A stretch of DNA of 61,824 bases, the filler included, from Rhabdomonas costata (lineage: Eukaryota): assembly GCA_019059605.1 (NCBI GenBank). It is 27 parts of 27 records of this genome, joined end to end, with 100 filler letters (N's around TTAATTAATTAA, not from the genome) between each part and the next. Parts side by side here need not be neighbours in the genome. Positions count along the whole stretch, not along the records: positions 55,053 to 57,244 come from JAHMHO010004948.1; 26 more parts are not named here. One strand, given 5' to 3'. This document shows positions 15,324-61,824 of this stretch, piece by piece. The notes beneath the pieces are model-generated. The model saw nothing but the letters and a program-made list of their open reading frames with translations. It did no database searches and was not told where the DNA came from. Both the position numbers and the translations under genes were made by a program. The first letter of the stretch is position 1. Each line of letters opens with the position of its first letter.

Positions 15324-15362
<39 letters not shown>

Positions 15363-40585: not shown

Positions 40586-41643
40586 CTGTACGCAGACACG
40601 AACACCCCACTGCAAGTGCACAGGCGTGAATCACCCGTTCACATCCGACCACACCAACCACCAGCTGCCTGGCACTGTGATCCTTGGTTCAGGTTCAAAT
40701 GGATCTCAGTCTTGAGCTGCGTATTGTGAACAGGGTTAGGTAAGATACCCTCATCCACTCAGCTGTGATTGAAGAGGAACAGAAGCGTGCACCCTGCAGG
40801 CACCGTAAATTTACACACTTTCTCATTCATCCCACCTATGCTTTCCCTTCTCCATCGTGAACTCTTTTTTGTGCGTCGTAAGGTTTTCGAAGAGTCTCAT
40901 GCTACAAATGGTAACACTGATACGGATAACTCCTCCCCTCATCGTTTAGACCATGAGACATGCGCCGAGAACATCATCAAACATCCAACAAAACATACAG
41001 CAGCGCTTTTCCATCAGTGCTTGCCGGTGTGGCAAGCACCTTCGCATCCAAATGAGGTGCAGCTGCAAGAAAACGGGGAACTTTCACCGCGCCCCCCCCC
41101 CCACACACCTAAAACGGAAAAGGTGGGAAGAAGGATATGGCAGGACGTCAGCATGATTGCGCGGAAGGCACACGGGAAGAATTCGGACACACACCCNNNN
41201 NNNNNNNNNNNNNNNNNNNNNNNNNNNNNNNNNNNNNNNNTTAATTAATTAANNNNNNNNNNNNNNNNNNNNNNNNNNNNNNNNNNNNNNNNNNNNTGTG
41301 GTGCAAACTTTTCTTGGGGTGTTGATACAAGTTGTGGTCCTCAAAGAAAGGGAGAAGAGAGAGAGAGAGAGAGAGAAAGGGGGTGGAGGCAAATGACCTT
41401 CGTGGGCACCTGAAACCATTATCTTGAGTCGCTCAAGACACAGGACAAATCTCAGCGGACGAGCGCAGCTGAAAGGGTACACACTTGAGTGCTTGCGGAT
41501 GTGCAAACACATCCGTTAGTATTTGTGTGTGGATGAAGGAGATCGGTACAACAGAAGGCCTCACAATTAGACCTGCTACGCCTCCCAGCCCAAGTTTCAT
41601 TCCAATGACCAGAGCAGCCTCCCTTCCTCTGACTCCAGTCACC

Positions 41644-43270: not shown

Positions 43271-43702
43271 TGAAGCGAAGAAGTAAAAAAAAAATTACGC
43301 GGAGAGAACAAAGAGAACCATCCCACCACATTCCTCCCGCCAAAAGAATGGTCGGTAGTGCAGAATTTCCGCGGCAAGTATTCTCCAAGCAGCTCATCAA
43401 AAATGGAAGCTTTCTTCTTCTTCTCCTACAGCAAGGTATGCCTATTATGACCCTGAAAAGCAGTGACCACTTTGAAGGTGTTCGGATAANNNNNNNNNNN
43501 NNNNNNNNNNNNNNNNNNNNNNNNNNNNNNNNNTTAATTAATTAANNNNNNNNNNNNNNNNNNNNNNNNNNNNNNNNNNNNNNNNNNNNGCTTTCCTTTT
43601 TGTTGCGACTGTAATTTGTGAATGTGTTGTAGACTTTGAAAGCACCCTTAAGTGTGTGCGCAGTTTAGGGGCGGGAGCTGGCACCTCCTCCGTACGTATC
43701 AG

Positions 43703-45567: not shown

Positions 45568-45882
45568 GTCCACACACACTCTCTCTCTGCTTTCTGGATG
45601 CGCTGCCTGGAGAGCACCGTGTGCACCTGACTGTGTGTCCGGAGCGGTCCTGGCGCTAAATGCGCTTGATTGTTTACCGTTCCCTGGTATTTGAGGCTTC
45701 AATACTTAATTAATTTTGGCTTTTTTGAACGGGTACCAGTGGTACCGGGCACCACTGGTGCTAGGTGCCTACACACAACCCNNNNNNNNNNNNNNNNNNN
45801 NNNNNNNNNNNNNNNNNNNNNNNNNTTAATTAATTAANNNNNNNNNNNNNNNNNNNNNNNNNNNNNNNNNNNNNNNNNNNNT

Positions 45883-46191
45883 TGGGGGTTGCCTCCAGAG
45901 GAACCGGGGCGACACCTCAGCACCTGATCCACATCCAGGGAAGGCACTTCGAGCTGGCTTTCGCTTTCCTTCACTTCCACTCGTGAAGAACATACAAAGC
46001 AAAAGCCAGCTCGAAGTGCCTTCTCTGGCTGCGGGGAGTGCAGGCGCGGCCTGGGCTCGCTTTGGGAGCCGTGGGGGTTGCCTCCAGAGGAACCGGGGCG
46101 ACACCTCAGCACCTGATCCACATCCAGGGAAGGCACTTCGAGCTGGCTTTCGCTTTCCTTCACTTCCACTCGTGAAGAACATACAAAGCAA
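45883..46191. repeat. Exact 120-bp direct duplication (period 189) with an interposed 27-bp inverted copy
   Basis: 45883-46002 equals 46072-46191; 46002-46028 is the reverse complement (1 mismatch) of both 45935-45961 and 46124-46150. Confidence 0.9.
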
Positions 46192-46351
46192 GACTAAGGC
46201 AATAGTGTCCAAGAAAACAGCGGAAGATGCATGCGGGTACAGCAGGGGCGAGGGGCGGCTCGTTACCACGGACACAGCAGAGAGCACTGGTCGGGGCTTC
46301 GCCATTGCAGGCATGTGAAGAGGACGGTGCACAAATGGGCAATCGCAAGTG

Positions 46352-46354
<3 letters not shown>

Positions 46355-46388
<34 letters not shown>

Positions 46389-46401
46389 CAGTAGTAGTAG
46401 T
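46355..46401. repeat. (TAG)n/(CTA)n microsatellite
   Basis: About 15 trinucleotide units with one CAG interruption. Confidence 0.92.
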
Positions 46402-46624
46402 ACAAGACCAGCAAAACTTAGACCGCTTCGGCCAACGTGAAAATCTCGTCGAGGAGATCCCATCCAATACCAAAAGCCATACACATTCGAAAATCACCTG
46501 CGCCCCCCTCCCTCTCGACGCGCGTTTTCCTAAAATTCACATTGCAGTTGTCGATGTTAGAAGTTCCCGCTGCAGGAGCAGAAATGCGGCGGATCACCAT
46601 CCCCACCTGAACAGAAGCGCACAC

Positions 46625-47701
46625 CTCCTGAATCCCAGGGCGGGCGTCCGGGTCCTTCGTAAGACAAAGCATCACACACGCCCGCCACAACTCCGAATAC
46701 TGAGACGGGAGTGGCGCAGGGGTGGAGTTCAGGATGCTCCGGAACAGCAGCGGCACAGTGCTCCCAGAAAAGGGGTGCGCCAAGGTCGAAAGGCGGTATA
46801 GCACGCACCCCGCGGCCCAAATGTCAACCTGTAAGGAAAGAAATCAGTCCAATCCGGCAGGCCTGTACCTTTTCCACAATCCACAAGGAAATCCTCCATA
46901 TTTCAATGACTGCAGCCTCCATCAAAAGGAAGATGCGTATCGCCATTCATAGTTAAATAGCGACGATTCCACTGCGCTCACCTGAGCCCACCACAATAAG
47001 GACGAGCCAAAACGTCACGAAGAGTTGGGAAAAGTGGGGTGGCCGTTGAGATGGGCACCTTAGCCACTGCCGAGGACGCACCTTGTAGTCACACGGAAGC
47101 CTCTGCACTTGTTCCGGGGCAAAGTAGGAGGGCGTCCCCACGGCAGAAGCCTCCTCGGGCTGGGAGGAGACCACTCGGCTCAGGCCCAGGTCAGCAAGCT
47201 TCACTGCAAGCTCAGGACCTATAACCCAGAGCGATCAACCGAGAGAAAATGATGATAAGTTACAGCATAACCGCTCGGCAGGCAACGCAGAGGCGTAACA
47301 CTGAGACACGGCTTGGTTTGTAATGCTCCAGGCTTGACGCCTTTGTACCCGCTGGAATGCCAGGCCAAAACAGCACCCTGCTACCCTTAAGTCAGCCACC
47401 TTTAAGTGGTGGGAGTGCCCAGCCTCTCCAAGCGTATGGATGTGGTGCTTGCGCATCAATCAACAATCGTTGGAGTTTTCTGGCTTCTCCGAAATCTCCA
47501 GGTTTGGCTGCACTGGAGTTCTCTGGAGAATAAGCAAGTTATCTTTTCTAGCTCCGCTGCACACCCATGAGAAGGACGTTTCGAGTCTTCACGTCGCGGT
47601 GGATGATGCGCGACTCGTGGAGGTACTGCAGCGCGGAGCACAGCTGGGAGAGCACCCTCCAAAGGAACGCTTCGTCGACTGCACACCCATGACTCCTGTA
47701 C
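46625..47701 (-). CDS. NIMA-related (NEK-like) Ser/Thr kinase, partial
   Basis: DEAFLWRVLSQLCSALQYLHESRIIHRDVKTRNVLL, VKLADLGLSR, VGTPSYFAPEQ, DIWAAGCVLYRLSTLAHPFSG, CLTKDPDARP. Confidence 0.9.
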
Positions 47702-48175
47702 CTGAGGAAGACCGGAACCAGAAGAATCATAGCCACCGACACCTCGGAGACCACTTGAGAGACAGGTTTCCTTTATCTTGGACGGATTTCACACCACCCA
47801 AAAAGCAGCAGAAAAACAACAAAACTTCGTCAGGGTACCAAACCTGCACAGTGAACACGCAGGAATGTCACGTGGAAAGAAAGGGAGTTCGGTTTTCTGC
47901 TTTGCAAACTGTCCCCTATAGTTTTTACACCGCGCTTTCAGCACCCCAGCACGGCAGCCTGCACCGCCGCAAGGGCGGGGAGAAACCCGTGAACGGGGAG
48001 CCCACACACAGTCCCATGAAAGAAGCTTGAAGCTTCTTGGCCTCCCAAACGTGCATCTCCATATGCATACCAACANNNNNNNNNNNNNNNNNNNNNNNNN
48101 NNNNNNNNNNNNNNNNNNNTTAATTAATTAANNNNNNNNNNNNNNNNNNNNNNNNNNNNNNNNNNNNNNNNNNNN

Positions 48176-50367
48176 GGTGGGTCCGACCTCCGGCACCCCA
48201 GCCTGGTGCACACCGTGGGCCGCGCCGACGGGTTCATCATCACAGAGATGGTGCACCCCGGCTCGCTGCGATGGGTGGTCTCCACCTTCGGGGCCTTGGA
48301 GGTCGGACCCTCCCATTTGTGTGGCACCATTGTGCAAAAAAAGAAAGTGAAGAGAAGAAAGGGAAAAATCGGTACCCCATTCCTCCAGCCTCGTTTGGCT
48401 GAGATGTATTCGACGTAGACTTCAGTGTTCCCCGATGTCCCCGGATGTATGGGTGGCCATCAGGCACTCACAGATAAAACTGTCACAAAATGGTGAGATG
48501 GAGAAGATTGTAACCCTCACTCCTCGCCACATTCATGTATATTATTGTATCTTTTTAGATCATTGTCACCAAACCATCAAAGGCGCGAAACCAAAGACAA
48601 ATGAGATCAAACCAAATCAACACCAAATCAGAGGACCACCACATTGTTTCGACGATATCTTGCGGTGAGTTGCGGGATTAATGTAAAATCCCAAGAATAC
48701 TTTACACCAGAAAATTCTGGCGGGATATTAGGGTGCCTACTAAACGTAGGCGGTGGTGTTTTCACTACCTGCGCCGTATGCGCATCATCACGCTCACGCT
48801 GATGTCAACTTCGGTAGCGGTTTCCAATTATCCGCAAGTGCCGGTTATGTGGACGAAATCTGGTGGTCAAACTTCCATGCCCGTAGGTTGAAAATGTGTT
48901 CCGCCCAGAACCAGCCACGGGGAGACCTCATGTGAGTGCTGTGGGTGCTCCCTTTTTGCGGAAGTAGAAGTAGAGCAAAATATCCTGAAAGTCAGAAGGC
49001 CATGAGGCTATGCCTCATTTTGGGTGTCTGGGTTGGGTGACTGATGCTGGCAAAATAATGGGTATGGGTAACGTCCTCCTGGCTGTTTTTCTGTGTGTGA
49101 CATGTATTCTCCCTCTTGGCCAGGAGCAGACGATGGCCCGGTACGTGGCGCAGATCGTTGAAGCGTTGGCCTTCCTGCACCGCCTTGCGCACGTCCACGG
49201 GGACGTCGCCAGCCCGGACAAGGCCCTCGTAGACAGCCGGGGGGTGGTAAAGCTGGTCTGGTTCGGGCCTCCTTCGGCGGCCTCAACGGCACCTCGGGTA
49301 CACGCAAACACACAGACCCACACTTGGACACAACCGCCTACCCCTTACCTGTTCACAAACACACACACACGCCCTTGGCACAGGAGGTTGTGATGCGACC
49401 ACCATTAGCTATTTGCGAGAGTATTATGAAATGCCCAGTTTCGTGATTGCTGTCCTCTGCTCTTCCCTCTGCTAAGTTATTCCCAATTCTTCCACTCTCC
49501 ACTGTTCTTCGGTGTTCTTCGGTGTTCTTCGGATGTTGTGTTGTCGATTGCTTTAAGTAGTGTTTAAGAGTTGAAGACACTCGCACTCCTATTCCCTTGT
49601 TCCGCAGTGGATACTGGAACCCCGTTTTTACCGTGTGAGCGTTACGTTTATGCCGTGTGAACCTACATTATACAACAGCCATTGCTAAAGCACAGCTAAC
49701 GAATATTGGTTCCACATGATGACCGGTGTTCTGCCGCGGAAAGTGAAATATACAAAGCACAGAAGCATGGCGTGTGAGCAGGAAAGCGAGTTACAAAATG
49801 GAACAATAAATTATAGAGGAACCAGACAGCGTGAACATAAGCAAGGCAATCACCAGCCATTGATATCGAAGACCTACTCAATGCAAGATCAAAAACCGGA
49901 GGAGAGACGCATCAGCCCCGTATTATCCAGACAAAAAGAAAAGGGGGTACGGGGGGGGAGCACCGGCTTGCCAGGGAAAGGTCCGGCCACGCAGCGTTGC
50001 GTGAGGTCCATTGCACATGGAAAGGACCCCGGGCTACTGCCGCCTTTCATTCCTAACCTTACCGCAAAATTTAGCCAGAAATTCTGAAGGAACTCTGCGC
50101 TAGTTCTGTGTATGGGAACAGGAGAAGACGCCAAGTGGGGATGTTAAGCCAAAAAGGTCGCATGTGAGAGGTGGAGTGAGGTGTAATTGCGGTATAATTT
50201 GTCAGTTTCTCTTCTCTTGTGTTCTCTCTATATCTCTGTGTGTGCGCATGTTTATTTAGGACGGTGGGGTTGGGCCGTGGGTGGCGCCTGAAGTCGCCTC
50301 CTCGCGGGTCTACGGCCACCCTGCCGACGTGTGGGGTCTGGGCGCCCTGGTCGTCATCTTGGCCACA
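48176..50367 (+). CDS. STE11/MAP3K-like protein kinase fold with degenerate catalytic motifs (exons ..48176-48301, 49124-49297, 50260-50367..)
   Basis: LRHPSLV..ITEMVHPGSL..FGALE|EQTMARYVAQIVEALAFLH..VHGDVASPDKALVDSRGVVKLVWFG..WVAPEV..YGHPADVWGLGALV; junctions in phase. Confidence 0.85.
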
Positions 50368-50467
50368 NNNNNNNNNNNNNNNNNNNNNNNNNNNNNNNNN
50401 NNNNNNNNNNNTTAATTAATTAANNNNNNNNNNNNNNNNNNNNNNNNNNNNNNNNNNNNNNNNNNNN

Positions 50468-52660
50468 GGTGGTGGTTGAAGGCCTTTGTACTCGCCACGT
50501 GCCGAATTAACTGCTCGTCTGTGTCAATTGCAGACGACTGGTTTCAGGTAGTGATGAAGTGATCCATATTTGCGGCACGGTCTGTGACTGTCAGAACCGC
50601 GTCGTAGGTCCTCTAATCCCGCTGAATCGGCGGAATCTAGACAATACGTCCATGCCGATCAACTGCCATTTCTGGGTTGTAATTGAAACTCGTTCCATCA
50701 GTACTCGAGGCTTCTGATGATCAGATTTGGCATGTTGGCACGTTGCATAAATCAATGTGTTTTAGAACAGTGTTTGGAATGAGGACCGACGTTGGATTAT
50801 GCTGACTGTCAAATGAATCCCCCAGTGACCCGCGACGATCGGATGGTGGTCCTCGGTAATAATCTCATTCACCCAATTCTTCGGTATGAGGATTTTGTCA
50901 TCGGCCAAAAGTCAGCCGTACTTGTAGTGCTTCCGCTTGTCCTCATGAAACTCGTTGGTTTTGAGATAGAAAATATATTCGAAGATTTAGTAGTCTTACA
51001 TCCAGTCGTCCAACAGGATTCAAGCTGGTTCAGCGAAACACACAAACACATTATTGGAGAGTGTCGGATGGGTGTTACCCATCTCCTGTTGCTCGCGCAT
51101 GCGTGAGAGAATGTCGGAGACAACATTCAACTTACCCGGAATGTTGGTGATGGTCAAATTGAATTCCTACAATCGATGCAATTTAGCCAGCGAATTTGGC
51201 GTGGTCACGGCTTTTTCATGGTGTAAAGGTACAGGATGCAAGTGTTTTTGGTCAATACTTTGACTTTGGCATAATGGAAGTAGTTCTTCAAAAGGTCGAC
51301 TGTTGACTAGTGCCAGCAGTTCTATTTCGTGTGTATGGTAATTAACTTCATGTTTATTCAACATTTAAGAGGTGCACAACCAGGGGAAGAATATATGAGT
51401 CATCACTCCTGCACAAAATTGCTCCGATGCCTGTTGCTGAAGCTTCGGTGTAATGAGTGAAGGGGTTGTTCAGGTTTGTAAAGTCCAAAACAACATACCA
51501 AAGAAGGTAGGACTTCAGTCCATAGAATGCTTGGTATCAAGTGCTACGGCTTTTTCTTTGCCAACGTCGAAAGTGTGTTAACATCGAAAACTTACCCCCT
51601 CGAATTAGTGACCGAATAAACGAATCCGAGGGGTTTGGATCCATTTTGCGATAGGAAGCCTGGAACTCTGGGCGCGTGTGAAGAGGTTTTTATATGTAAC
51701 AATGAACAGAACGAGATAACTGGAAAGACTCTGGCGTGGAGTTGGGTTGGGAACTGATTGATGAGGTCGATGTAGTGCTGGTGTCTGTGTGGGTGTGTTG
51801 GGTGGTTGTGAAGTGGAGCTCACGTGGTTGGAGAGGCATGTCTGGCCGCCACCGCATTTGGGTGCAGTGCTGGTGCTTCCTGCTTCCACTCATGTCTTGG
51901 ATGCTTTGGTGCTGCAACATCCAGTTGTAGTTTCATGGTGCAATTACTCGCGAAGTGTCCTCTTCGTCGGCAGTTGAAGCATTCGGCGTCTTGAGATGAC
52001 CCGTGTCTCGGTTGGGAACTCATTCCGTTGCCACGACAGGATTGTTGGGTCCAGAACAATGACGGGATGGTGGGCCAAATTCTCTTGGTTGATTTTCCGG
52101 TTGACACGTTTTTGTGGGTGGTGTCTGGCCTCGGCCCCGTCCACATGAAGTCCAACCGATGCCACCGTACCTGATGTAGCTGCGCCCACACCACCTTCCT
52201 GCGGATAGCGGTCGAAAACGTGGTGGGAAAACTGTCCGGGGTATTGGTGTGGCACAATGCTGGAACCTTCCGTATATCGACTTGCACGATGGTGACCGGC
52301 ACTCGGGTTTACCTTCTGTCTTTGGTAAGCTGGTTGATTTCTTCGACTCGCACGGCAAGCGGTCCACAAAACTCAGGTGCGTAACAGGAGTTCTGTAAAA
52401 GGTGGGGCATTCTATGACGTTTGCTGTTGCCATCTGTTCTGTTGCTTTTAGAAAAACTGCCGATTCTTACTTGCGATGAACTAGCCTGCCTCTCTGGACA
52501 AAACGTCAAGCTTTTTGTGAATCTTGGTAAGTACCTTTGAGTTCGCTTGTTCGACGTAGCTCTTTCAGTGAGTAGTAGGGCCCAGATGTCCAGATCAAGC
52601 CAACTCGAAGGCTTGATTCAACGTCGCATTCTTGCCCTGTGATACAAGAAAACCAAACCC
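50468..52660 (-). mobile_element. Decayed Ty3/Gypsy LTR retrotransposon internal region (gag zinc knuckle, RNase H, integrase)
   Basis: CFNCRRRGHFASNC (51940-51981); LNKHEVNYHTHEIELLALV and IPGKLNVVSDILSR (RNase H); WQLIGMDV and YDAVLTVTDRAANMDHFI (integrase); RH-before-IN order; many stops and frameshifts. Confidence 0.88.
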
Positions 52661-52957
52661 NNNNNNNNNNNNNNNNNNNNNNNNNNNNNNNNNNNNNNNN
52701 NNNNTTAATTAATTAANNNNNNNNNNNNNNNNNNNNNNNNNNNNNNNNNNNNNNNNNNNNTTGTTGGGTTCACTATTCTTTCAGACCCAGGCGCAATTTG
52801 TTTGAAGGACATGGTCGTGGGTGACTTCGTCAACTGAGCGGCATTTTGGATAAGCACCATGCCATGCGGCAGCGCATGGATGGGAAAGGTGGGAGGGGTG
52901 GACTGGGGAAAAGAACAAGGGGTAGAGAGTAGAGTAGAGAGTAGGGTAGAGAATCAC

Positions 52958-53624
52958 CTTGTGGTCTCCCAAATCGCGCAGAATCCCCAGAAGGGTGGGA
53001 ATCACACCGGCCTCCACAAACCGCGGCACGAGCTTGCTGCCGTGCTCACTGCAGTTTCTAAGCGGGGGTGGGCGGCACTCAGAAGGGCCACCGTGGAATC
53101 ACAGCACACGGAACATACCCATAATTCTATACCTTCTTGGGGTTTGGCTTGAGTTTCCCATAATAGATTGAAAAGAACAATAAAAAAGTCCAGAAAACAA
53201 ACCAGGGTCAACATACACGACCCCATAGTGCACATAGCTTTGTCAGAGCTGTTGTGGCGCCAGTGGAATTGGCGGTGACCTGTCCCATCAAGACATTCCG
53301 AAATTACCAGGACTGTTGGCGTCCCAACATGTTTACTCCCACTACTGGGTTACTCTGCTTTCTACTTTTCACATTCAAAAGCGCGGCGCAGTGTTTCCTC
53401 AGTGGTTCCGGTGCCCTCCGATGCACTCCACAAACAAGGTAACCTCAGGCACCCCGTGAGCTGCATCAGCAGCGCGATGCCCGCCCGGGGCACCGCGGAG
53501 GGCGATGACTCCGTCGCAGACGGAGGGGATGCAGAGGAGCCCATGGACGCCACAGGGGCGGAGGCAGAGGAGAGCGAGCGCAGGGTCTCCACCAGTGTGG
53601 CCTGCAGGACGTCCACCAGGATTT
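52958..53624 (-). CDS. Armadillo-repeat protein (ARMC2-like), partial
   Basis: Spliced LLMQLTGCLR|NCSEHGSKLVPRFVEAGVIPTLLGILRDLGDHK fits an ARM repeat; AG|A junction in phase. Confidence 0.55.
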
Positions 53625-55269
53625 CTGTGGGGGAAAGAGAGGGGCTGCACCTTTTTAACATTCCACATTCCACACCTTCTGCCCGAGATTTGAATGGTGG
53701 CCAAAGATGGATGGAAATGCTGCTGCGTGGACGGGGAAGGAATCTTGCCTCTTACACCTCCTCCCGCCTATGCCCACAGTGTGTAGTGTGTGGTGGGGGA
53801 TTCAGATCTCGAAAGTGCAACCCACACGTTATTACACCCAACCAATGAAATCCAACTGCATTCCCCCCCCACACACACACACAAGCAAGGGCTGCATTGG
53901 GTGGGGTAGGGGGTGGTGTCCACTCGAGGGCAAAGTGGCATAGCAGACGGGAACAATTGCTTATGTAAACTTCTTGAAGGTTCTCGGTGAGACTAAAGTT
54001 ACGAAAGTAATCCACCAGAGACCATTCAATTGCAAAATTTTCCCGTAATAAGTATCACCAAGTATTTGACTTTCTTGTTTCCACTGCCACTTTCCCTCTG
54101 AGTTACAATAACAAGACCAATTCGTATCTGAAAACTATGCACCGTTGCTTTTGAAGGTAAGCCAACACACAGGAACAATGGGTGACAATGGTGCAAAGAG
54201 CCTACATAGCAGAGACACGAGGGGCAAAGATGTGCACAGGGTCGAGACAGCCCTAACTCTCCTTCTTCCGAACCATCGAATCAGGAATGTCCACGACCTG
54301 ATTTACAGAGCAAAACGACACACAGAAACAGAAAGAGAGTAAAGAAAGAAAGAAAGCGCTTCCAACACTTCGTTCCCCAAACACAACGCGATCCCACGAA
54401 TTCCGCTTTTCACATCTTCAGGTCGCAGCTGAACGCAGCTGTCCATCAACAATCATCCGTATTTAACTTTGCGCCTGAAAGTGGGGATTCTATAAATGAC
54501 AGCGAGAGGCCTCTAAGACAGCGGCAGACCGAAGCATTCCGGCCCGCTCCGGAGCCAGCATGCAGTATTCTTGCAGGTGGGTCATATCTCGGCGTGTATC
54601 CGAAGGCTGAGAAGTGGCCAACTGCCATACATCGACCTCGACCCGTCACACTCCCTCGAGTTCAAAGGTCCGCGTTGGGTCTCCAGTTGTCTGGTCCATT
54701 CCAGGAGTGCCGATGGGTTATGTCCCCCAACGAGGAGGGTGACGCTTCAGGCCAAAATATGTGGTCTTACGACCCTGTTTCCGGTGAAGCCCCCAGTGGC
54801 TCAAGAGACTAAATAGCTCCCACGGAAGGAACCCCAAAACATTGTTAAGAAAACGAACTGAATGCTGCAGTCATCTTGCAGTCATACGAGTCGATTTGAA
54901 GCAGTTAGGGAAGCAAAAAACAATGGGGGGGGGGGCCGAGATGGAGGAGGGGNNNNNNNNNNNNNNNNNNNNNNNNNNNNNNNNNNNNNNNNNNNNTTAA
55001 TTAATTAANNNNNNNNNNNNNNNNNNNNNNNNNNNNNNNNNNNNNNNNNNNNGGTTGGTTGTCAACTCAGCAAATGCTTGCATCTCTCTTTCCTGTCAGG
55101 TTCCTTTTTGGTTTCCGCGTCATCCGCTGCGGTGTGCTCTCCTCAGCGTAATCCGCTCGTGCGCTTCTTCGTTCACTTTAACGTTCTCAGGTTCTCTGCG
55201 CACACAGAGGCGCAAACTAAACGCCTGGGGGGGAGCCACATTGAAGTCGGTTGTATGGGTGGCGAACAC

Positions 55270-56735
55270 CTAAAAACTTCGCATTTCGCCCGATGGTGGG
55301 GCCCATAATTGAGCCGAATTGCGCGCCCCACGTGATCAGTCCAAAGCCCGACCGCGCAGTATTGAGGTCGAAGATAGAATTCACGAAAGACCTGAGCAAA
55401 AAGAACGTGGATGGTGGATGGTTTCAGCACCTGGTCTGCGCGCCATATTGAGTGCGCATTCGGGCCTGGTACCAATACATTGACCGCAAAAGTCGACCGA
55501 CAATACAATAGGTCACATGATGAAAACCACAACTATCTCCTCTCCACATCACAGTCAGGAGAGCCAAATTTTGAGACCAATTGTCAAGGCAAAAAATGGG
55601 AAAGAATAAGAAAAAGAAGAATGAAATACCGTTGGAAAGGGGTGTTGAGAAAGAAAAACAGTCAAGGAGAAGCAGCAACCAGAACATGGGCACGCAGAGC
55701 GAGCCGAAGGACTCAATGCTGACATAGATCAACCATCCCAAAAGACGATCGGGGCTGGCAGGGAGCGCGTCGTCCACGCCGAGCCCAGGGACGCTCAGCG
55801 CGATGGCCACGAAGAAGAACAAAATCCTATGCGTCCCGGAAAGTGCGAAGTGCAGGCTGGGGCATCAGGAGCACTCTCTGCACCACACAGTGCCCATGTT
55901 TCAGCCGGTGCTCTTCACAAAGCTGACAGAATGGAAATGCAGCACAAGTAAGTAATGTTGCTTTTTTTTTGTTGCTCCTTCATTTTGTCATCATTGCCAA
56001 ATAAATTCACAAAGACTTGAAAAGACAACAAACTGAACAGAAATCATGACAGTGTTGTCACTCGTTTTCTGGTCGCCTTTTATGGGCTGCTCATGATCGT
56101 GTAATAGTGTGCTGATCTGTTCAAAAGATCGCTTGTTTTCTCCAACGGGTCATTTATTCCAGCCAATACCAGCCAATAGCCATCAGTCAAATGCAAATCA
56201 CCGATGCGCGCACACCCGTAGGCACCACACACGACGTAAAAGATGCGGTGCTTCTCCAGTAGGTCAACCAGCTTGGAGTAGCCCAGGATCAGTGGAATCA
56301 TAACAACAAATGATAACATCTTGGCTTTGGGAATGTTGGCCGCACCTGTGATCTTCATGAACAGGGCATCCTGTGTGAATTGAGATTGTGTTGTTAACCA
56401 AGGGTGGTGTAGTCGACCCTTGTTTCCTTCAGCACAACGCGCTTTTCTGAAAGACGAGTCCTGCTCTGAAGAGCAAGGGAATCCAATATGCCAAGCACGG
56501 TGACGTCAGCCGAATACAACATCAAACGCTATATAACAAAAATGTGAAAAACCTTTTGAGTGCGAAGCAGCCAATAGGTGCCAACGATGAACATGAACGT
56601 TAGTGAGAGCATGGCAATCTTCCGGTACTCTTCTCTCGGAAGATCTCCCCAGAGCTGCCGACGCACCCTCTCCAACAAGCCCACGGGTCGGGACGCCTTG
56701 AGCTGGGACTCATGGTCATCCTCCAATGAGGTCAT
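55270..56735 (-). CDS. NTT/TLC family ATP/ADP (nucleotide) transporter, 5' part (exons 56735-56553, 56370-56216, 55826-55680, 55391-55270)
   Basis: LWGDLPREEYRKIAMLSLTFMFIVGTYWLLRTQK|DALF..NIPKAKMLS..YSKLVDLLEKHRIFY..GWLIYVSIESFGSLCVPMFW|SFVNSI..GAQFGSIMGP; the conserved NTT K(D) and E...FW motifs are present; all junctions in phase. Confidence 0.9.
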
Positions 56736-58113
56736 CACGCGATAAGCAGGTCTCTGCGTTGTGTGGTGAGCAAACAAGAGACACCAGACGACAAAAGAAA
56801 ACTCAATAAAAGAAAACTCAATAAGGTTCCTGATCAAGTAAAGCAACCATAGTCATGAATAAAAAGCAGGCACATAAGAAATGACTCCCACTGAACAAAG
56901 AAACCAAAGAAACATGTGCGCTTTCGTATTAATCGCACACTATTGCCGTGCTAAAACCGCCAGAATAATGTGGTTATTTTCCCCATCTTTATGGACCTGC
57001 GAGAGCATTCAAACTGGTCTGGTACACATAGCCTGCGCACCCTTGGACCATTTTAAGCTGGATAATTAAAAGTTAAACCATTGACTTTGAATCCGCGAAC
57101 TAAAATTTCAGCACTTTTGCTGAAATAGGATGGTGAACCTTGTCTCCACAACGCAACACAACCGCCTGTGTCATGGGGTGCAGCAGACTATTCGGAACAT
57201 TTGAAAATTTTTTCGGTTTTAAAACCAAATGGGAACCAACAAAANNNNNNNNNNNNNNNNNNNNNNNNNNNNNNNNNNNNNNNNNNNNTTAATTAATTAA
57301 NNNNNNNNNNNNNNNNNNNNNNNNNNNNNNNNNNNNNNNNNNNNGGGGTTGTTGTCGAAGAGGTAGGAAAGGGAAATCTGTCCAGTTGCGAAGGCGGAGG
57401 CAGCCGAGGCACACGCCGAAATAGCTGTGAACTCTGGCTGACGGCTTGTTGACTCTCGCGAGTTCAGCTGGTACATCCATTCCTGAAAAGAAATAGCCCG
57501 CATCTGTATTGAAGCAAACTGTGGAGAGAAAACTTATCCAATGCGAACTATTGCTGCCAACCTCGGAACATAGCACACGAAAGGGAAGATTCATGATTGG
57601 CAAAGTGTTGGAGGGCGAAGCCTAAGCAGGTCCGGGGGTATTTTCTGTGTACAGTGGGCCTCCAGCAACGCTGGCAGGTCGTGGCAGGTCTCTTCTTTCT
57701 TTTATCTTGTTCCGCTTCTTTCCCCAGCGCAGCGGAGGGTTTATCGACGGCCATCAACGTATGAACAAAACCCACCTGCCTCTCTGCCTCTACACCTGTG
57801 AAAGGCCCCCAGGCACATGGCTTTCCAGAGTCAAAGGCCAATTCGAACCATATCATCTTCTGGCCTATTTTTTCCCACTTTGACCCATTCTTAAAATCAT
57901 CGGCACAGTGCTGGCGACAAACAGCAGCGCCACACACGGGGAAGGAGAAAAGAACAACGGAAGTTCAGTGCGCTTCGGCAACGACCGGAAATACAGAAAA
58001 CCCTGAGGAAGGATAGGCGCAACGTCCTACACCCAAGGCGTGGTTTTCAAGATTGCCCAACATTAGTGACCCAACCGCACCTAATTATGGCGGAAGCACT
58101 GCATACAGGATAC

Positions 58114-59069
58114 CTGGTCCCCGGCAGGGCTCGGAAACTCATTCAGAGGGCGGTGGCACGGCAGTACGCGCACGGCGGGCCCCCGCAGTGCCCCCGCAGG
58201 CACACACCGGATATGGCAGCTGACCTGAAAGAACAAAAAGGAAAGGAAAGGAAACCAAGTGGAGGTCACATGATCGAAAGTGCAGAAGGTGAAGAGGCAC
58301 ATAATTTTTTTCGGGGGGGGGGGTTGCACTTTAGACGGTGTTAAACGGGTTTTGTTCTTGCTTCGCACGTTTATTCATCATTCCGCGTAGCGGCTGGAAC
58401 CGGTTGTCTGCAGTGGGTCATATACTGGCTTCGCTCAGTAGTGCCATGCAATAGAGGGTGCTAAAGATTTAGCAAATGACCTAACTTTCGCATTTCGCCT
58501 CCCTCCCACCCGACAGTGAGGAAAATATCTGCATGCCCTTGGTCTCCCTTCTTTTGTCTTTTGTGAATGGTGGTGATCACCTGCTTTGCGACGGTCTCCG
58601 TGATCAGCAAGGGCACCCCAAGGGCCTTGCACGCCACCTTCTGCAGCGCCACCGCCTGCCCCACGGCCTCCCCCACCACAACAAACCACTTCACCACATC
58701 GCTCCCCATGTTCCCAAAGGTCACCGTGGAGCTGGCAATGCCCACCCGAACTCCAAGCGAAGCCGCTTCGCGGGACGCTGGCTCAATGAGAAGCGAAAAT
58801 GGAGTCTGCTCTGAAGATGCTTGCTGCGGAGGAGACGGGGGGCTCAAGTTGTCTAAAGTGAAATTCACGCTGAGTTCAGCACGTGTAATGCTCCACTTCG
58901 CCACCACCTCGAGAGCGCACATCACCGCATGGTACTCAGCCCTTGGCAGCCGCCGGGGGACGTTGAACAGTGCAAAGACGCGATCTCCAAACACCTTGTC
59001 CACCAATCCACGGTGGAGGGTGACATGCTCGTGAACTATCTCGATGTACCGCTGAAAAATCTGTCCCAA
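58114..59069 (-). CDS. Degenerate class III nucleotide cyclase domain, paralog B (exons 59069-58581, 58224-58114)
   Basis: GLVDKVFGDRVFALFNVP, HAVMCALEV, VRVGIASSTVTFGNMGSD, GEAVGQAVALQ; same intron positions as paralog A. Confidence 0.85.
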
Positions 59070-60014
59070 CTGCGCAAAAGGAGGTAACTCGATCATAACA
59101 ACCCGAAAACGGCAGTAGTCTTTTTTCTTCGCTTTGCTTGCAACTTGCTGACTTCTCGGGTACCTTCAAGATCCAAAGACAAATTCACGGGAAATTCTCA
59201 GCCAGTTCCCCGCGACTGGTACGAAAGGTTCAACTTGCTAGCTGCAAAACGCACCAGGGGAAACATTTGAAGACACACACATCCCACTGAGGTTGACACT
59301 TGGATAGGGGATGGGGCAAAACTGCTGCTCAATTTCCAGAAAGATTGATGATGGCAATCGGTTTGAAAGCCTTGGGCTTCTTTCGAACTGTTTCTCTTGA
59401 AAAAAAGTAATCCTCAAAACCTCAAAAGTGCGAGACGAAAAACTGCTATCCAAAAAGTCAAATTTTGCGCTCACGGAGGGTTTTGGGAGTAAATATAATA
59501 GTAGATATCTTCCAATATAAACTTTCCCACAACACCNNNNNNNNNNNNNNNNNNNNNNNNNNNNNNNNNNNNNNNNNNNNTTAATTAATTAANNNNNNNN
59601 NNNNNNNNNNNNNNNNNNNNNNNNNNNNNNNNNNNNGGGTTTTTGGAGGTATGGCCTGTGCCAGGGGGGGGGGGAGGCTGGCATTCTCAACGTAGAAGTT
59701 TGTTGAGGGTCCGTTGGTCTTTGCCTGCCTGCCCACCTGCGTATTCACCCTCTTTCCAACGTTGCACCTCTCACCTCCCTCCCTCCTATCTGCCCACACA
59801 AACTCTTGCTCCGGTGCACAAAGTCAACAAAGTGGTCGGGCATGGCGAAGAACAAAGCAAAGCGCAGAGCCCAGATGCATCGATCACATGGAATTCTACA
59901 CAGACTTCCAATTGCCCGCGAATCGAGGGAACTGGTTATTGGACCTTCCCATCACACCTAGAACCATCTTTCTGAGCTGCGAAGGCAGCCCCCCTTTTCC
60001 CCTCCTCGAAAAAA

Positions 60015-60263
60015 ATGACTGCCCTGCCTCCGGACGTGCTGCGGTACATCTTTGGGTTTGCCCGGCGGCGGGCCTTCTGCCTGGTGTGCCGGCGGTGGTG
60101 TAGAGCATCCCACCTAAGGCACCTCTGTGGCTCCGCCTTCCCCACCCCGCGGGAGCTCAGCAGTTTTCCTGCCCAAGGGCCTCGTGTCTTGCCCTCCTGC
60201 CCTTCCCTTCCCGCTCCCCATTTCCCCTTCGTCCTTTCTTCGACCAGAAGCAAAGCTCTTTGA
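60015..60263 (+). CDS. N-terminal F-box motif ORF (first exon or gene fragment)
   Basis: MTALPPDVLRYIFGF....FCLVCRRW fits the F-box consensus LP.E/D.L..IF...VC+.W. Confidence 0.6.
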   Translation: MTALPPDVLRYIFGFARRRAFCLVCRRWCRASHLRHLCGSAFPTPRELSSFPAQGPRVLPSCPSLPAPHFPFVLSSTRSKAL

Positions 60264-60988
60264 AGGACTCATGAATGTCTCCAGATGCGATCTGAGATAG
60301 GGATGCGCCGTCTTCACCGTCGTATGCAGAACAAATGGAAGCTTCGAAACACCAGAACAGAGGAACACCAAGCCAGCGGCAAAATAGTGGCTGGAAGTCC
60401 ACGGCAGAGAACAAAGCCCAGGCCATCGCAGGGTGCGCAGTCAGCCGGGCGGAAGTGTAAGGCTGGGACTGACACTTCAGGAGGAAACGGTCCCGACGGG
60501 ACGCTAGAGCTGCCCACGACATTAGAGTTAGTGCTCAGTTACTTGTTGACTTGAGGCGCGCTGGAAGGTAAGAAGTCACGGTTTCGTCGGAAAACAACCA
60601 ACCGATGGAACCAGAACGGATCCGAAGCCGCCGTGCATGCGCGACAGCGTGAAGAAACCCGAAGCGGAGAGAAGCAGGGCGGTCCTATCCAACAGCATGT
60701 GCAAGAGGAGAAAAAGAAGAGAGGTCATCCCCAAGGGATTCTGAATACCCAGCCCAGAATCGAACGGAGATATGCGTGAAGCCACTGCGGATCAAAGAGG
60801 AAGGAACTCAGGATGGAGGACAGGGGTGCACACACAAAAAGGGAGCTGGAAAGCAGGTACAAGAAGTGCAAAGGGAATGGTGCGAGCGGCGTAAAGCAGC
60901 TTGCATGCACCAGGCAAGAACGGGGGATGAGAAGGTAGTCTGTGGGCAGTCAAGAAGCTCCAGTCTCTCTGTAAAGCGCTCAAAAGAA

Positions 60989-61177
60989 AGCGGTCCGTTT
61001 GGACTCGCCCTGGTTTGACTCGGGACCCAAGTGCGAGCCACGTACTCTCACTATACATGTTAGCTGAACAGACGAGAACTTGTGGACTAAAGAATCGGGC
61101 AGGAGGGCGGGACACATAAACCCCCCAGCGGTGCGTTTGGACTCGCCCTGGTTTGACTCGGGACCCAAGTGCGAGCC
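60989..61177. repeat. Two 51-bp direct repeats (60989-61039, 61127-61177) separated by 87 nt of unique sequence
   Basis: AGCGGT(C/G)CGTTTGGACTCGCCCTGGTTTGACTCGGGACCCAAGTGCGAGCC, 1 mismatch. Confidence 0.9.
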
Positions 61178-61824
61178 GATCATAAAGGCAACTGTTTGTG
61201 GTGTTGTTTTTTTGGCATCTCATTCAGTCATTGTATAAGAGGATTCGTCTGTACGTATTCGGCAGTGGCATCAGACGCGTCAACACAAATATTTCTGGTT
61301 GCGCATGACCTTTTTTTTCCGCTTATGAATTTGGCTCTAGTTTATTCAGATTGAGCTTGCAGTTGTTTACTCTTGACCGGGTGAGCAGAGGTTCCCGCGT
61401 ACCCCGATGCAACACGGTTAACTCCCATAAACCCTTGGTGACAGGTCTGTCGTGAACAGAATGTATGTTCTGGTCGCCCCTCCATCTTAAGTTTAGGGTT
61501 TATCAGTGCGCAACATCAGCGACAATAGTTTGCCCCCTGTCCCCAAAAATTCAGAAGACTGAGGGAGTTTTTGATGGACTAACAATTATCGTCCAATGGT
61601 CCACCTGACAGAGAACCCAGGAAAGCGATATACAAAAAGGGAACAATAAATTACAGAACGAGGCAAAGTGAAAATGAGCAAAGCAGGAGACCAAATCACG
61701 AGCGATGATAAACACAACAGAAAATTAACCAAATTACATAGGCGCAAGATGGGGTGAGTTGTATGAGTTGGTTGTGCCCCCTATTATCGGTGAGCGCCCA
61801 CGCTTCGCCCCTTCCCACAAAACC

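What the first reader, a model, noticed from the sequence alone, without database searches (positions are those of the whole stretch)
55270..56735. Intron-containing NTT (ATP/ADP translocase) gene with no visible plastid presequence in a probable euglenid
Seen: four in-phase GT-AG exons encode the N-terminal part of an NTT/TLC carrier. The apparent start Met (56735) is only about 27 aa before LWGDL and the leader is charged (MTSLEDDHESQLK), unlike a signal or transit peptide. Established: NTTs are typical of Chlamydiae, Rickettsiales, TM6/Dependentiae, plastids and microsporidia. Inference: the motifs LWGDL..EE.+K, YWLLR..KD, IPKAKMLS, YSKLVD..EKH and IESFGSL look to me more like the Dependentiae-related non-plastid NTT group than plant or algal plastid NTTs. 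That would mean a laterally acquired, now intron-bearing nucleotide carrier that may import nucleotides at the plasma or vacuolar membrane.
Basis: partly seen in the sequence, partly recalled or inferred. Interest (0 to 1): 0.72.

Follow-up and report, generated by a model that had tools for sequence, protein, structure and literature searches.

The report
Bacterial-origin nucleotide carrier gene in a euglenid
This is the front part of a real, intron-split nuclear gene of the plastid-less euglenid Rhabdomonas costata for a nucleotide-transporter-like membrane protein that euglenids as a group inherited long ago from Dependentiae-type parasitic bacteria.

Summary
On the minus strand of window 55270-56735, four GT-AG exons join to 202 residues. 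These are letter for letter the start of EukProt protein RCo044979 (467 aa), a transcript-derived Rhabdomonas costata protein. The gene is cut short because the window is a chain of 27 contigs of about 2.2 kb, and this contig ends inside intron 4.

The full protein passes Pfam TLC (85 bits, cut-off 21). It fails the canonical plastid/Chlamydia/Rickettsia model TIGR00769 (85 bits, cut-off 387). Its closest solved folds are AtNTT1 and Chlamydia NTT1, and four key charged residues are kept.

In the trees, ten euglenid-type sequences form one clade (100/100). They come from Rhabdomonas, Euglena gracilis, E. longa, Eutreptiella, Chasmostoma, Entosiphon and two unnamed records. The clade is nested among proteins of Babeliales/Dependentiae MAGs.

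Substrate and membrane remain inferred. This is a new member of a known kind, of moderate interest.

The parts
55053..57244 (.). The whole short contig that carries the gene fragment. It is bounded on both sides by N44-TTAATTAATTAA-N44 linkers.
   Evidence: linker map; sequence.
56853..56855 (-). First in-frame stop codon upstream of the start codon. It lies 120 nt upstream, with no in-frame ATG between it and the start.
   Evidence: script: in-frame stop at 56855; the upstream ATGs listed are all out of frame with 56735.
56754..56820 (-). Pyrimidine-rich tract ending in AG (56755-56754). This is a candidate acceptor for spliced-leader trans-splicing and would leave an 18-nt 5' UTR (56753..56736). 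Inference only; the 5' limit of the tract is approximate.
   Evidence: Read directly from the sequence.
56553..56735 (-). Exon 1: ATG plus 61 codons (MTSLEDDHES...LLRTQK), holding the hydrophilic leader and TM1. Followed by a phase-0 GT intron.
   Evidence: tblastn 100% identity to P0001 residues 1-61.
56371..56552 (-). Intron 1: 182 nt, GT...AG, GC 0.45.
56216..56370 (-). Exon 2: 155 nt (DALFMKITG...CGAY plus 2 nt of Gly113). It holds K78, the counterpart of AtNTT1 K155.
   Evidence: Pfam TLC E=0.048 on its own. 100% identical to P0001.
55827..56215 (-). Intron 2: 389 nt, GT...AG, phase 2, GC 0.45.
55680..55826 (-). Exon 3: 147 nt (ILFFFVA...CVPMF plus 2 nt of Trp162). It holds E151, the counterpart of AtNTT1 E245. 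The paralogue's isoform RCo050174 lacks exactly the 49 residues (147 nt) that correspond to this exon.
55392..55679 (-). Intron 3: 288 nt, GT...AG, phase 2, GC 0.44.
55270..55391 (-). Exon 4: 122 nt (SFVNSIFDL...NAKFL plus the first nt of Gly203).
55053..55269 (-). Start of intron 4 (GT..., phase 1), cut by the end of the contig after 217 nt. The remaining 264 codons of the gene are not in the window.
   Evidence: intron listing; tblastn finds no further pieces in the window.

Best explanation
Window 55270-56735 (minus strand) is the 5' part of a nuclear, spliceosomal-intron-bearing gene of Rhabdomonas costata or a very close relative. It encodes the 467-aa protein RCo044979, a 12-helix carrier of the TLC/NTT superfamily.

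The protein belongs to a clade found only in euglenids. Members come from phagotrophs (Entosiphon, Chasmostoma), an osmotroph (Rhabdomonas), phototrophs (Euglena gracilis, Eutreptiella) and the colourless E. longa. The clade descends from the divergent NTT paralogues of Dependentiae (Babeliales, TM6), which are intracellular parasites of protists.

The simplest history is one bacterium-to-euglenid transfer before Entosiphon split from the other euglenids. That is before the euglenophyte plastid. Vertical descent, intron gain at host-like density and lineage-specific duplications followed.

Shown here: the gene structure, identity with a transcript-derived protein, family membership, the fold, conservation of four charged residues, and the nested phylogeny.

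Inferred: that it still carries nucleotides (adenine or other NTP/NDP, by exchange or proton symport). Also inferred: that, having no signal or transit peptide, it enters the ER through its first helix and works in the plasma membrane or an endomembrane rather than in a plastid.

The confidence of 0.8 is for gene identity and bacterial origin (about 0.9 on their own) taken together with the softer functional inference (about 0.65 for nucleotide transport; the membrane is open).
For: Gene and organism:
- 202 of 202 residues from the four GT-AG exons equal P0001 = eukprot:RCo044979.
- RCo identifiers are the transcriptome-derived R. costata proteins of PMC8219788.
- That paper reports conventional GT/AG introns at comparable density, for example 4 in the 1335-nt tubB (section 7). 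Here there are 4 in 607 nt.
- Exon GC is 0.50-0.60 and GC of the three complete introns is 0.44-0.45; GC3 is 0.71.

Family:
- Pfam TLC scores 85.3 bits against a cut-off of 21.
- The A1 profile hits AtNTT1 (9j3j, E 2.2e-34) and the ADP,ATP carrier protein 1 chain 9j3n (E 6.5e-30), which titles Chlamydia pneumoniae NTT1. These were the only 2 PDB sequences at E<=0.01.
- The AF2 model has pLDDT 82.9 and pTM 0.81.
- The Foldseek top 5 of 500 are all AtNTT1 or CpNTT1 (E 1.6e-13 to 1.8e-9, TMq 0.60-0.79). Generic MFS proteins follow from E 3.4e-7.

Key residues. Yeoh 2015 lists them after Trentmann 2000. They map through the alignment as K155 to K78, E245 to E151, E385 to D276 and K527 to K399. All four are invariant in the 14-sequence alignment A1.

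Origin:
- Of the best 120 hits, the 9 with eukaryote labels are all euglenid. The rest are Babeliales/TM6-type at 43-55% identity.
- A euglenid-only profile brings the same 11 euglenid-type proteins on top (680-874 bits). Only bacterial-type proteins follow (<=648 bits).
- A scan of GTDB genomes gave 70 loci. 25 are titled Babeliales, Dependentiae or TM6. None is from a named Chlamydia, Rickettsia or cyanobacterium.

Trees:
- FastTree, 246 rows: euglenid clade 100, inside a 110-row clade at 100.
- IQ-TREE quick, 93 rows: euglenids 100, inside a 56-row clade at 100.
- IQ-TREE careful (LG+C20 PMSF), 61 rows, rooted on 3 canonical TLCs: euglenids 100/100. They are sister to an 18-row clade (11 titled Dependentiae) at 98/82, and both lie within a 37-row clade at 100/100.
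- The branching order inside the clade fits the species. Entosiphon is first, and the Rhabdomonas pair is sister to Chasmostoma plus euglenophytes at 99/90.

Not plastid-type:
- TIGR00769 scores 85 bits against 387.2.
- The canonical TLCs sit across a branch of more than 5 substitutions per site.
- E. gracilis has a separate canonical plastid-type NTT, ABV25597.1, seen in the supplement of PMC5381601.
- The leader has no hydrophobic core.
Against: - No member of this Dependentiae-type subfamily has been characterised, as far as I found. Nucleotide transport therefore rests on homology at 23-25% identity to the solved NTTs.
- E385 is replaced by Asp.
- Major 2017 notes that one non-canonical NTT (Simkania NTT4) failed to transport nucleotides (section 5). 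Yeoh 2015 suggests that TM6 paralogues have taken on new functions.
- On NCBIfam, exon 4 alone hits a generic MFS multidrug model (E 0.0038).
- The 5' end is not anchored by RNA.
- 45 of the 70 bacterial loci have vague or conflicting titles: 22 'uncultured Pseudomonadota', 19 unclassified and 4 others. 'Dependentiae donor' therefore leans on the 25 clearly titled ones and on the way the two kinds interleave.
- The root depends on a very long outgroup branch.
- The membrane location was not tested at all.
Confidence: 0.8

Rival explanations
1. The gene and its bacterial origin are as described, but the carrier no longer moves nucleotides. Like other non-canonical NTT clades, it may carry NAD+, another cofactor or some unrelated anionic metabolite.
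For: It scores only 85 bits on the NTP/NDP exchanger model TIGR00769, whose cut-off is 387.2. The subfamily has no characterised member. PamNTT4 carries NAD+, and Simkania NTT4 showed no nucleotide transport (Major 2017, section 5). Yeoh 2015 proposes new functions for TM6 paralogues. E385 is Asp here.
Against: The four charged residues used as NTT markers are kept: 3 identical and 1 conservative. All are invariant across euglenids and Babeliales. The closest solved folds are nucleotide-bound NTTs, not other MFS carriers. PamNTT4's own substrates (NAD+ and ADP) are themselves nucleotides.
Confidence: 0.25
2. The contig is bacterial contamination from a Dependentiae-like symbiont or prey in the culture, not a euglenid nuclear gene.
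For: The nearest non-euglenid relatives are bacterial. PMC8219788 warns that prokaryote-affiliated proteins in its data set may be contaminants (section 6).
Against: Three complete GT-AG introns and one partial one interrupt the frame. Their removal reproduces a transcript-derived protein exactly. Orthologues exist in five other named euglenid species and branch in species-like order. GC3 is 0.71.
Confidence: 0.01
3. It is a plastid-type NTT, of green-algal or chlamydial ancestry, whose targeting exon lies upstream of the contig.
For: Only 509 nt upstream are available, and there is no RNA check. E. gracilis and E. longa have K03301 'plastid ATP/ADP translocases' in plastid-proteome lists (supplement of PMC7580956).
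Against: TIGR00769 is far below its cut-off. The clade is nested among Babeliales-type proteins and lies far from the canonical TLCs. The predicted protein starts at the same Met. Orthologues, including those of phototrophs, have hydrophilic leaders of 28-56 residues and no signal-peptide-like core. R. costata is reported as ancestrally osmotrophic. E. gracilis has a distinct canonical NTT that can account for the plastid entries.
Confidence: 0.01
4. The transfer went the other way: Dependentiae acquired the gene from a euglenid or another eukaryote host.
For: Dependentiae live inside protists, so transfer in either direction is physically possible. The root relies on a long outgroup branch.
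Against: With the outgroup root, five successive supported nodes of purely bacterial sequences lie between the root and the euglenid clade: 95/77, 100/99, 97/87, 100/100 and 98/82. The bacterial genomes hold 4-7 TLC matches each, so the diversity sits on the bacterial side. The euglenid clade is a single long-stemmed branch (0.52).
Confidence: 0.03
5. There was one eukaryotic acquisition, shared with the stramenopile-type relatives (Pseudopedinella and MMETSP proteins), followed by eukaryote-to-eukaryote spread.
For: Other eukaryotes have proteins of the same broad subfamily at about 38-40% identity.
Against: They fall in a separate clade (100/99) together with two unnamed representative proteins of untested origin. 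The AU test rejects a single clade with the euglenids (delta lnL 70.5, p 1.09e-5). The group was named after the tree had been seen, which weakens that p-value.
Confidence: 0.03

Closest known systems
Babeliales/Dependentiae (TM6) 'Npt1/Npt2 family nucleotide transporter' paralogues (for example P0003 and P0014; loci L001-L070)
   Same: They share 44-55% identity over 92-93% of the length. They share the motifs LWGDL, YWL.R..KD, IP.AKM.S, YSKLVD..EKH, IESFGSL and NPCKEI.YIPT.KDVKFKAK.WID. They score similarly low on Pfam TLC and TIGR00769. The euglenid clade is nested among them.
   Different: The bacterial genes have no introns, and their proteins are 430-458 aa. The euglenid proteins add a hydrophilic N-terminal leader and a C-terminal tail of about 10-15 residues. 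They also carry clade-specific changes, for example LLRTQKD against LMRPLKD.
Canonical NTTs: Arabidopsis AtNTT1 (PDB 9j3j/l/m) and Chlamydia pneumoniae NTT1 (9j3n/o)
   Same: They have the same fold (TMq 0.75-0.79, E about 1e-13). The counterparts of K155, E245 and K527 are kept and E385 is Asp. Both belong to Pfam TLC.
   Different: Identity is only 23-25%. The protein fails the canonical model TIGR00769 (85 bits against 387.2). It lies on the far side of a very long branch in the tree. It has no plastid transit peptide.
Phaeodactylum tricornutum NTT5 (a non-canonical diatom NTT in the ER and outermost plastid membrane)
   Same: It is a precedent for a bacterial-derived, non-canonical NTT working in a eukaryotic endomembrane as a purine-nucleotide exchanger (passages of PMC5381601 and PMC6995639).
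   Different: It has a different bacterial source (it groups with Poribacteria, Simkania and Halobacteriovorax according to Major 2017). It has an N-terminal extension. No sequence comparison was made here.
Microsporidian and Rozella NTTs
   Same: They are also NTTs gained by a eukaryote from bacteria by lateral transfer and used at the plasma membrane (PMC5381601; PMC6995639).
   Different: They belong to the canonical clade and serve obligate intracellular parasites. The euglenids here are free-living.
Euglena gracilis canonical plastid-type NTT (ABV25597.1, partial)
   Same: It comes from the same group of organisms and the same superfamily.
   Different: As printed in the supplement of PMC5381601, its sequence carries the AtNTT1-like motifs (for example NYTILRDTKD and VEVTWKSKLKAQFP). 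It is therefore a different, canonical paralogue. It was the only euglenozoan NTT in that survey (table).

Membership tests
TLC / NTT superfamily (Pfam PF03219; TC 2.A.12) | Sequence match above Pfam's gathering score | tested here: met
   The full-length P0001 scores 85.3 bits, E 5.5e-24, against a cut-off of 21. The window's exons alone do not reach it. Only E2 hits, at 12.9 bits.
TLC / NTT superfamily (Pfam PF03219; TC 2.A.12) | 12-helix MFS-like fold closest to solved NTTs | tested here: met
   The AF2 model has pLDDT 82.9. Foldseek ranks 1-5 are AtNTT1 or CpNTT1, with TMq up to 0.79.
TLC / NTT superfamily (Pfam PF03219; TC 2.A.12) | Charged residues K155, E245, E385 and K527 (AtNTT1 numbering) | tested here: met
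   The counterparts are K78, E151, D276 (a conservative change) and K399, read from the alignment. The offset of 84 between chain and precursor numbering is my inference; all four positions land on the expected residue letter. All four are invariant in A1. The residue list comes from Yeoh 2015.
TLC / NTT superfamily (Pfam PF03219; TC 2.A.12) | Nucleotide transport activity | not testable with these tools
   This needs an uptake assay.
Canonical NTP/NDP exchangers (NCBIfam TIGR00769; plastid, Chlamydia, Rickettsia and microsporidia clade) | Score at or above the curated cut-off of 387.2 bits | tested here: not met
   P0001 scores 85 bits. E. gracilis P0008 scores 82.5, P0027 73.5 and the Babeliales protein P0003 69.4.
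Canonical NTP/NDP exchangers (NCBIfam TIGR00769; plastid, Chlamydia, Rickettsia and microsporidia clade) | Branches within the canonical clade | tested here: not met
   Three canonical TLCs (445-614 bits on Pfam) form the outgroup. A 100/100 branch separates them from all 58 ingroup rows. Named plastid and chlamydial sequences could not be added to the tree.
Plastid-targeted euglenid proteins | N-terminal bipartite presequence starting with a hydrophobic signal peptide | tested here: not met
   The 28-residue leader before the WGDL motif has net charge 0, and its best 9-residue hydropathy mean is 0.31. An in-frame stop lies 120 nt upstream. No dedicated predictor was available and no RNA check was possible.
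Dependentiae-type NTT subfamily | Nested among Dependentiae/Babeliales sequences in a rooted tree | tested here: met
   The sister clade of 18 rows has 11 titled Dependentiae, Babeliales or TM6. The enclosing 37-row clade has 100/100 support.
Nuclear spliceosomal-intron gene of a euglenid | GT-AG introns whose removal reproduces the transcript-derived protein | tested here: met
   (202 of 202 residues). Conventional GT/AG introns are the norm in R. costata (PMC8219788, section 7).
Nuclear spliceosomal-intron gene of a euglenid | Spliced leader at the 5' end of the mRNA | not testable with these tools
Only a candidate acceptor AG at 56755-56754 is seen.

The most novel reading that the evidence does not exclude
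Free-living euglenids took the nucleotide-stealing transporter of a Dependentiae intracellular parasite before they ever had a plastid, and they have kept it for hundreds of millions of years. In the osmotroph Rhabdomonas it may sit in the plasma membrane as a net importer, so that a free-living eukaryote can feed on dissolved external nucleotides.

A less likely variant (about 0.1) is that euglenophytes co-opted the divergent paralogue (E. gracilis 7819 / E. longa 4070) for their secondary plastid. That would echo the chlamydial NTT story of primary plastids.
Probability: 0.2. Interest if true: 0.65.

Novelty: new member of a known kind. Interest (0 to 1): 0.5.

Why it matters
NTTs are usually read as a hallmark of energy parasites and plastids. 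Major et al. 2017 showed that they are more widespread, but that survey held a single euglenozoan sequence, the canonical plastid-type one.

This case shows a second, unrelated NTT lineage in euglenids. Its apparent donor is Dependentiae. It is present in plastid-less phagotrophs and osmotrophs as well as in phototrophs, and it now carries host-type introns.

It therefore offers three things:
- a dated footprint of an old association between Dependentiae and euglenids;
- a clean example of a bacterial transporter domesticated by a free-living protist;
- a eukaryotic handle (the E. gracilis orthologue) for finding out what the uncharacterised Dependentiae NTT paralogues transport.

I found no paper describing this in the library searched. 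The protein sequences themselves are already public.

Tried and rejected
- **Own genome.** It is not held, so the rest of the gene and any paralogous loci could not be fetched. tblastn of P0001 and P0010 against the window found only this contig.
- **RNA reads.** The spliced-leader 5' end is therefore unverified. A spliced-leader fragment search in the contig found only an 8-9-nt match on the plus strand (the opposite strand) near the far end, which I take as chance.
- **Per-exon family scans.** They were nearly blank. The identification needed the full-length protein.
- **Scan history.** Three look-ups found nothing.
- **Plastid co-option.** I considered that the two K03301 'plastid ATP/ADP translocase' entries of the E. 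gracilis plastid-proteome list (supplement of PMC7580956) are the two Dependentiae-type paralogues. I could not map the DEEG identifiers to sequences. Finding a canonical E. gracilis NTT then made the idea unnecessary, so I downgraded it.
- **Plastid-proteome preprint.** The main text of 10.1101/573709 does not discuss these carriers, and its supplements are closed.
- **Mitochondrial proteome.** EG_transcript_7140 and EG_transcript_7819 do not occur in the one held supplementary file of PMC7403612. I do not know whether that file is complete, so this is only weak evidence against a mitochondrial location.
- **Other papers.** The Rapaza paper (PMC10041101) has nothing on NTTs. A search for a paper on the 9j3j-9j3o structures found none in the library.
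- built a tree of only 19 rows because of a selection bug in my script. I discard it and repeated the tree properly.
- **GTDB groups.** The search does not report them for genomes reached through loci. I could not check whether the 22 'uncultured Pseudomonadota' MAGs are really Dependentiae. In the trees they interleave with Dependentiae-titled ones and are sometimes nearly identical, for example L062 and L068.
Full report
**What the window is.** The 61,824-base window is not one stretch of chromosome. It is 27 contigs of about 2.2 kb each, joined by 26 linkers of the form N44-TTAATTAATTAA-N44. The finding lies on the contig at 55053..57244. Anything said about 'upstream' or 'the rest of the gene' is limited by these 2,192 bases. 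No whole genome is held for the window.

**The observation.** Four exons can be read on the minus strand, with GT...AG at every complete intron.

| Feature | Coordinates | Length |
|---|---|---|
| Exon 1 (from the ATG) | 56735..56553 | 183 nt |
| Exon 2 | 56370..56216 | 155 nt |
| Exon 3 | 55826..55680 | 147 nt |
| Exon 4 | 55391..55270 | 122 nt |

Introns 1-3 are 182, 389 and 288 nt. Intron 4 begins with GT at 55269 and is cut by the contig end after 217 nt. The intron phases are 0, 2, 2 and 1, so 'in phase' holds only in the sense that the exons join into one frame.

Joined in a script, the exons give 202 codons plus one base. All 202 residues equal the first 202 residues of a database protein, P0001 = eukprot:RCo044979, 467 aa.

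An in-frame stop lies 120 nt upstream with no in-frame ATG between. A pyrimidine-rich tract ending in AG at 56755-56754 looks like a trans-splice acceptor.

**Organism.** RCo identifiers are used for the transcriptome-derived proteins of Rhabdomonas costata in PMC8219788 (passages; section 6). Its abstract calls the species a primary osmotroph whose low share of green-algal genes supports an ancestrally osmotrophic, plastid-less status. The same paper reports that all completely detected introns in six test genes have GT/AG boundaries and are frequent (section 7). That matches four introns in 607 nt here. The window is therefore from R. costata or something very close to it.

**Family.** Taken one by one, the exons say little. 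Only exon 2 touches Pfam TLC (E 0.048, 12.9 bits, below the cut-off of 21; 1 of 4 exons). On NCBIfam, exon 2 touches TIGR00769 (E 0.026) and exon 4 a generic MFS model (E 0.0038).

The full-length protein is clear.
- Pfam TLC scores 85.3 bits (cut-off 21). A sub-threshold MFS_1 match scores 20.4 bits against 33.4.
- A profile of 14 family members hits only two distinct PDB sequences at E<=0.01: AtNTT1 (2.2e-34) and chain 9j3n (6.5e-30). titles 9j3n Chlamydia pneumoniae NTT1.
- An AlphaFold2 model (pLDDT 82.9, pTM 0.81) finds the five AtNTT1/CpNTT1 entries as its top five Foldseek matches (E 1.6e-13 to 1.8e-9, TMq 0.60-0.79). Other MFS carriers follow from E 3.4e-7.

Yeoh et al. 2015 list four charged residues as key for NTT function, after Trentmann 2000: K155, E245, E385 and K527 in AtNTT1 numbering (figure legend). 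I did not see the Trentmann paper. Through the residue-level alignment they correspond to K78, E151, D276 and K399. The offset of 84 between chain and precursor numbering is my inference; it lands on the right letter at all four sites. All four are invariant in alignment A1.

The protein is nevertheless not a canonical NTT. On TIGR00769, NCBI's model of NTP/NDP exchangers, it scores 85 bits against a cut-off of 387.2. Its E. gracilis and Babeliales relatives score about the same.

**Relatives.**
- The word-indexed search with P0001 gave 882 proteins at E<=1e-5 among 8,000 scored candidates, and 120 were listed.
- The nine with eukaryote labels are all euglenid: Eutreptiella gymnastica (67%), E. 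gracilis EG_transcript_7140 (62%) and 7819 (51%), R. costata RCo050173 and RCo050174, Chasmostoma nieuportense (64%), Entosiphon sulcatum (54%) and E. longa (51%).
- Two unnamed records (P0007, P0075) also fall in this group.
- All other listed hits are bacterial-type proteins of 393-471 aa at 43-55% identity. Where they are named, the names are Babeliales or TM6.
- A profile built from the ten euglenid-type proteins brings the same eleven proteins on top (680-874 bits). There is then a gap, and only bacterial-type proteins follow (<=648 bits). No kinetoplastid, diplonemid or other eukaryote appears.
- The exhaustive HMMER search counted 4,372 representatives at E<=0.001 and 317 at E<=1e-30.
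- A scan of one genome per GTDB species gave 207 pattern matches and 142 confirmed relatives. The best 80 were kept, as 70 loci. By title, 25 are Babeliales, Dependentiae or TM6. 22 are 'uncultured Pseudomonadota' bins, 19 are unclassified and 4 are other.
- The vague titles interleave with the Dependentiae ones and are sometimes nearly identical to them (L062 and L068). I therefore doubt the vague labels, but I could not check them (one search gives no groups).
- Five of these genomes are small (1.3-2.7 Mb) and hold 4-7 TLC matches each. Three of them also carry a canonical TLC of 445-614 bits. I fetched those three as an outgroup.

**Trees.**
- *FastTree, 246 rows.* These came from 274 stored proteins. 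I left out P0012, P0135, P0268-P0273 and everything under 380 or over 700 aa. The euglenid-type clade has support 100 and lies inside a 110-row clade at 100.
- *IQ-TREE quick (LG+C20 PMSF), 93 rows.* The rows were 10 euglenid-type, 65 of the 70 loci (5 under 400 aa dropped), 15 representatives and 3 canonical TLCs. Euglenids have SH-aLRT 100 and lie inside a 56-row bacterial clade at 100.
- *IQ-TREE careful, 61 rows, a hand-picked subset of those 93.* Euglenids are 100/100 and are sister to an 18-row clade at 98/82. By my count from the newick, 11 of those 18 are titled Dependentiae, Babeliales or TM6. Both lie within a 37-row clade at 100/100.
- *Order inside the euglenid clade.* Entosiphon (with P0075) branches first, then E. 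longa with E. gracilis 7819 (93/67). Next the two R. costata paralogues (100/96) are sister to Chasmostoma plus Eutreptiella, P0007 and E. gracilis 7140 (99/90).
- *Reading.* The order fits vertical descent from an early euglenid. The 7819/4070 pair would then be an old, divergent paralogue.
- *Other eukaryotes.* Proteins of the broad subfamily from Pseudopedinella elastica and an MMETSP record form a separate clade. Forcing them together with the euglenids costs 70.5 log-likelihood units (AU p 1.09e-5). I defined that group after seeing the tree.
- *Limit.* The root rests on a very long outgroup branch, so 'nested' depends on the root not lying on the euglenid stem.

**Plastid question.**
- The clade is far from the canonical NTTs.
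- E. gracilis has a separate canonical plastid-type NTT, ABV25597.1. It was the single euglenozoan entry in Major et al. 2017 (table). Its sequence, printed in their supplement, carries AtNTT1-like motifs.
- The leaders of the euglenid proteins are 28-56 residues before the WGDL motif (P0027 starts at the motif and looks 5'-truncated). They have no hydrophobic core: the best 9-residue hydropathy mean is 0.31 for P0001 and at most 1.84 in the others.
- The E. longa paper lists two K03301 'plastid ATP/ADP translocase' entries shared with the E. gracilis plastid proteome (text; supplement). I could not map these to sequences. The canonical gene is enough to explain them.

**How it most likely works.**
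- *Shown:* it is an expressed, spliced nuclear gene. It belongs to the TLC superfamily, has an NTT-like fold and keeps the four charged marker residues.
- *Inferred, substrate:* the protein carries nucleotides across a membrane. I cannot say whether by ATP/ADP-type exchange or by proton symport.
- *Inferred, location:* it lacks any cleavable targeting peptide, so it probably inserts into the ER through its first helix. It would then act in the plasma membrane or an endomembrane.
- *Support:* the family is kept in phagotrophs, an osmotroph and phototrophs, so the job is a general euglenid one and not a plastid one. Diatom NTT5, a non-canonical NTT that exchanges purine nucleotides at the ER, is a precedent.
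- *Caveats:* no member of this Dependentiae-type subfamily has been characterised, and at least one non-canonical NTT failed to carry nucleotides. I give the 'other substrate' rival about one chance in four.

**Novelty.** Lateral transfer of NTTs into eukaryotes is known for microsporidia, diatoms, oomycetes and others (PMC5381601). The sequences here are public and are annotated as ADP/ATP carriers. In four literature searches and in the papers I read in part, I did not find three things: the apparent Dependentiae origin, the presence across plastid-less euglenids, and the intron-bearing gene structure. This is a new member of a known kind. It is of moderate interest to those working on euglenid evolution, LGT and Dependentiae biology.

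Noticed in passing
window 1..61824 (linkers at, for example, 54953..55052 and 57245..57344): The window is 27 contigs of about 2.2 kb joined by 26 N44-TTAATTAATTAA-N44 linkers. Neighbouring 'genes' in the window are therefore not neighbours in the genome.
   Followed up: yes
P0010 / P0012 (RCo050173 / RCo050174), corresponding to window exon 3, 55680..55826: The paralogue's second isoform equals the first minus 49 residues (147 nt). The missing piece sits exactly where exon 3 of the window gene lies and has the same length. This looks like frame-preserving exon skipping. It implies that introns 2 and 3 predate the R. costata duplication.
   Followed up: partly
C-termini of P0001, P0006-P0011, P0013 and P0027: Euglenid proteins carry a tail of about 10-15 residues that the bacterial homologues lack. 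7 of 9 end in Leu or Val, against 0 of 5 Babeliales proteins. From recall, a C-terminal hydrophobic residue can act as an ER-export signal. Not tested.
   Followed up: no
window 30539..31036 (+): An open frame with an ISXO2-like DDE transposase domain (PF12762, E 4.7e-9, 36.9 bits against a cut-off of 27) lies on another contig. It may be a transposon or a bacterial contaminant contig.
   Followed up: no
window 32680..33305 (-), 45206..45691 (+), 48989..49390 (+): Other contigs carry fragments of ordinary eukaryotic genes. TCP-1/cpn60 is in two overlapping frames, which suggests an intron. There is also a Sec7 domain (E 9.9e-14) and a protein kinase piece. 5 of the 66 open frames scanned had a Pfam hit at E<=1e-5.
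   Followed up: no
L062 / L068 and other loci: 22 of the 70 bacterial loci are titled 'uncultured Pseudomonadota'. In the trees they interleave with, and are sometimes nearly identical to, proteins from MAGs titled Dependentiae or Babeliales. The submitter labels look unreliable.
   Followed up: partly
G001-G005 (genomes of L001, L002, L011, L054, L067): These small genomes (1.3-2.7 Mb) have 4-7 TLC matches each, some of them adjacent on one contig (for example G001 contig C18). Three of the genomes hold both a canonical TLC (445-614 bits) and divergent ones (about 40-90 bits).
   Followed up: partly
P0274, P0149, P0129, P0134: A separate eukaryote-containing clade of the same broad subfamily holds Pseudopedinella elastica and an MMETSP record. 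These proteins are longer (581-586 aa) and have N-terminal extensions. This may be the stramenopile NTT3/4-type group of Major et al. 2017, but that link was not tested.
   Followed up: partly
cluster of P0007 (member P0272): A 78-aa member of the P0007 cluster lies on a 1.17-Mb ENA contig. This would fit a single exon of an intron-split orthologue in a large eukaryotic assembly.
   Followed up: no
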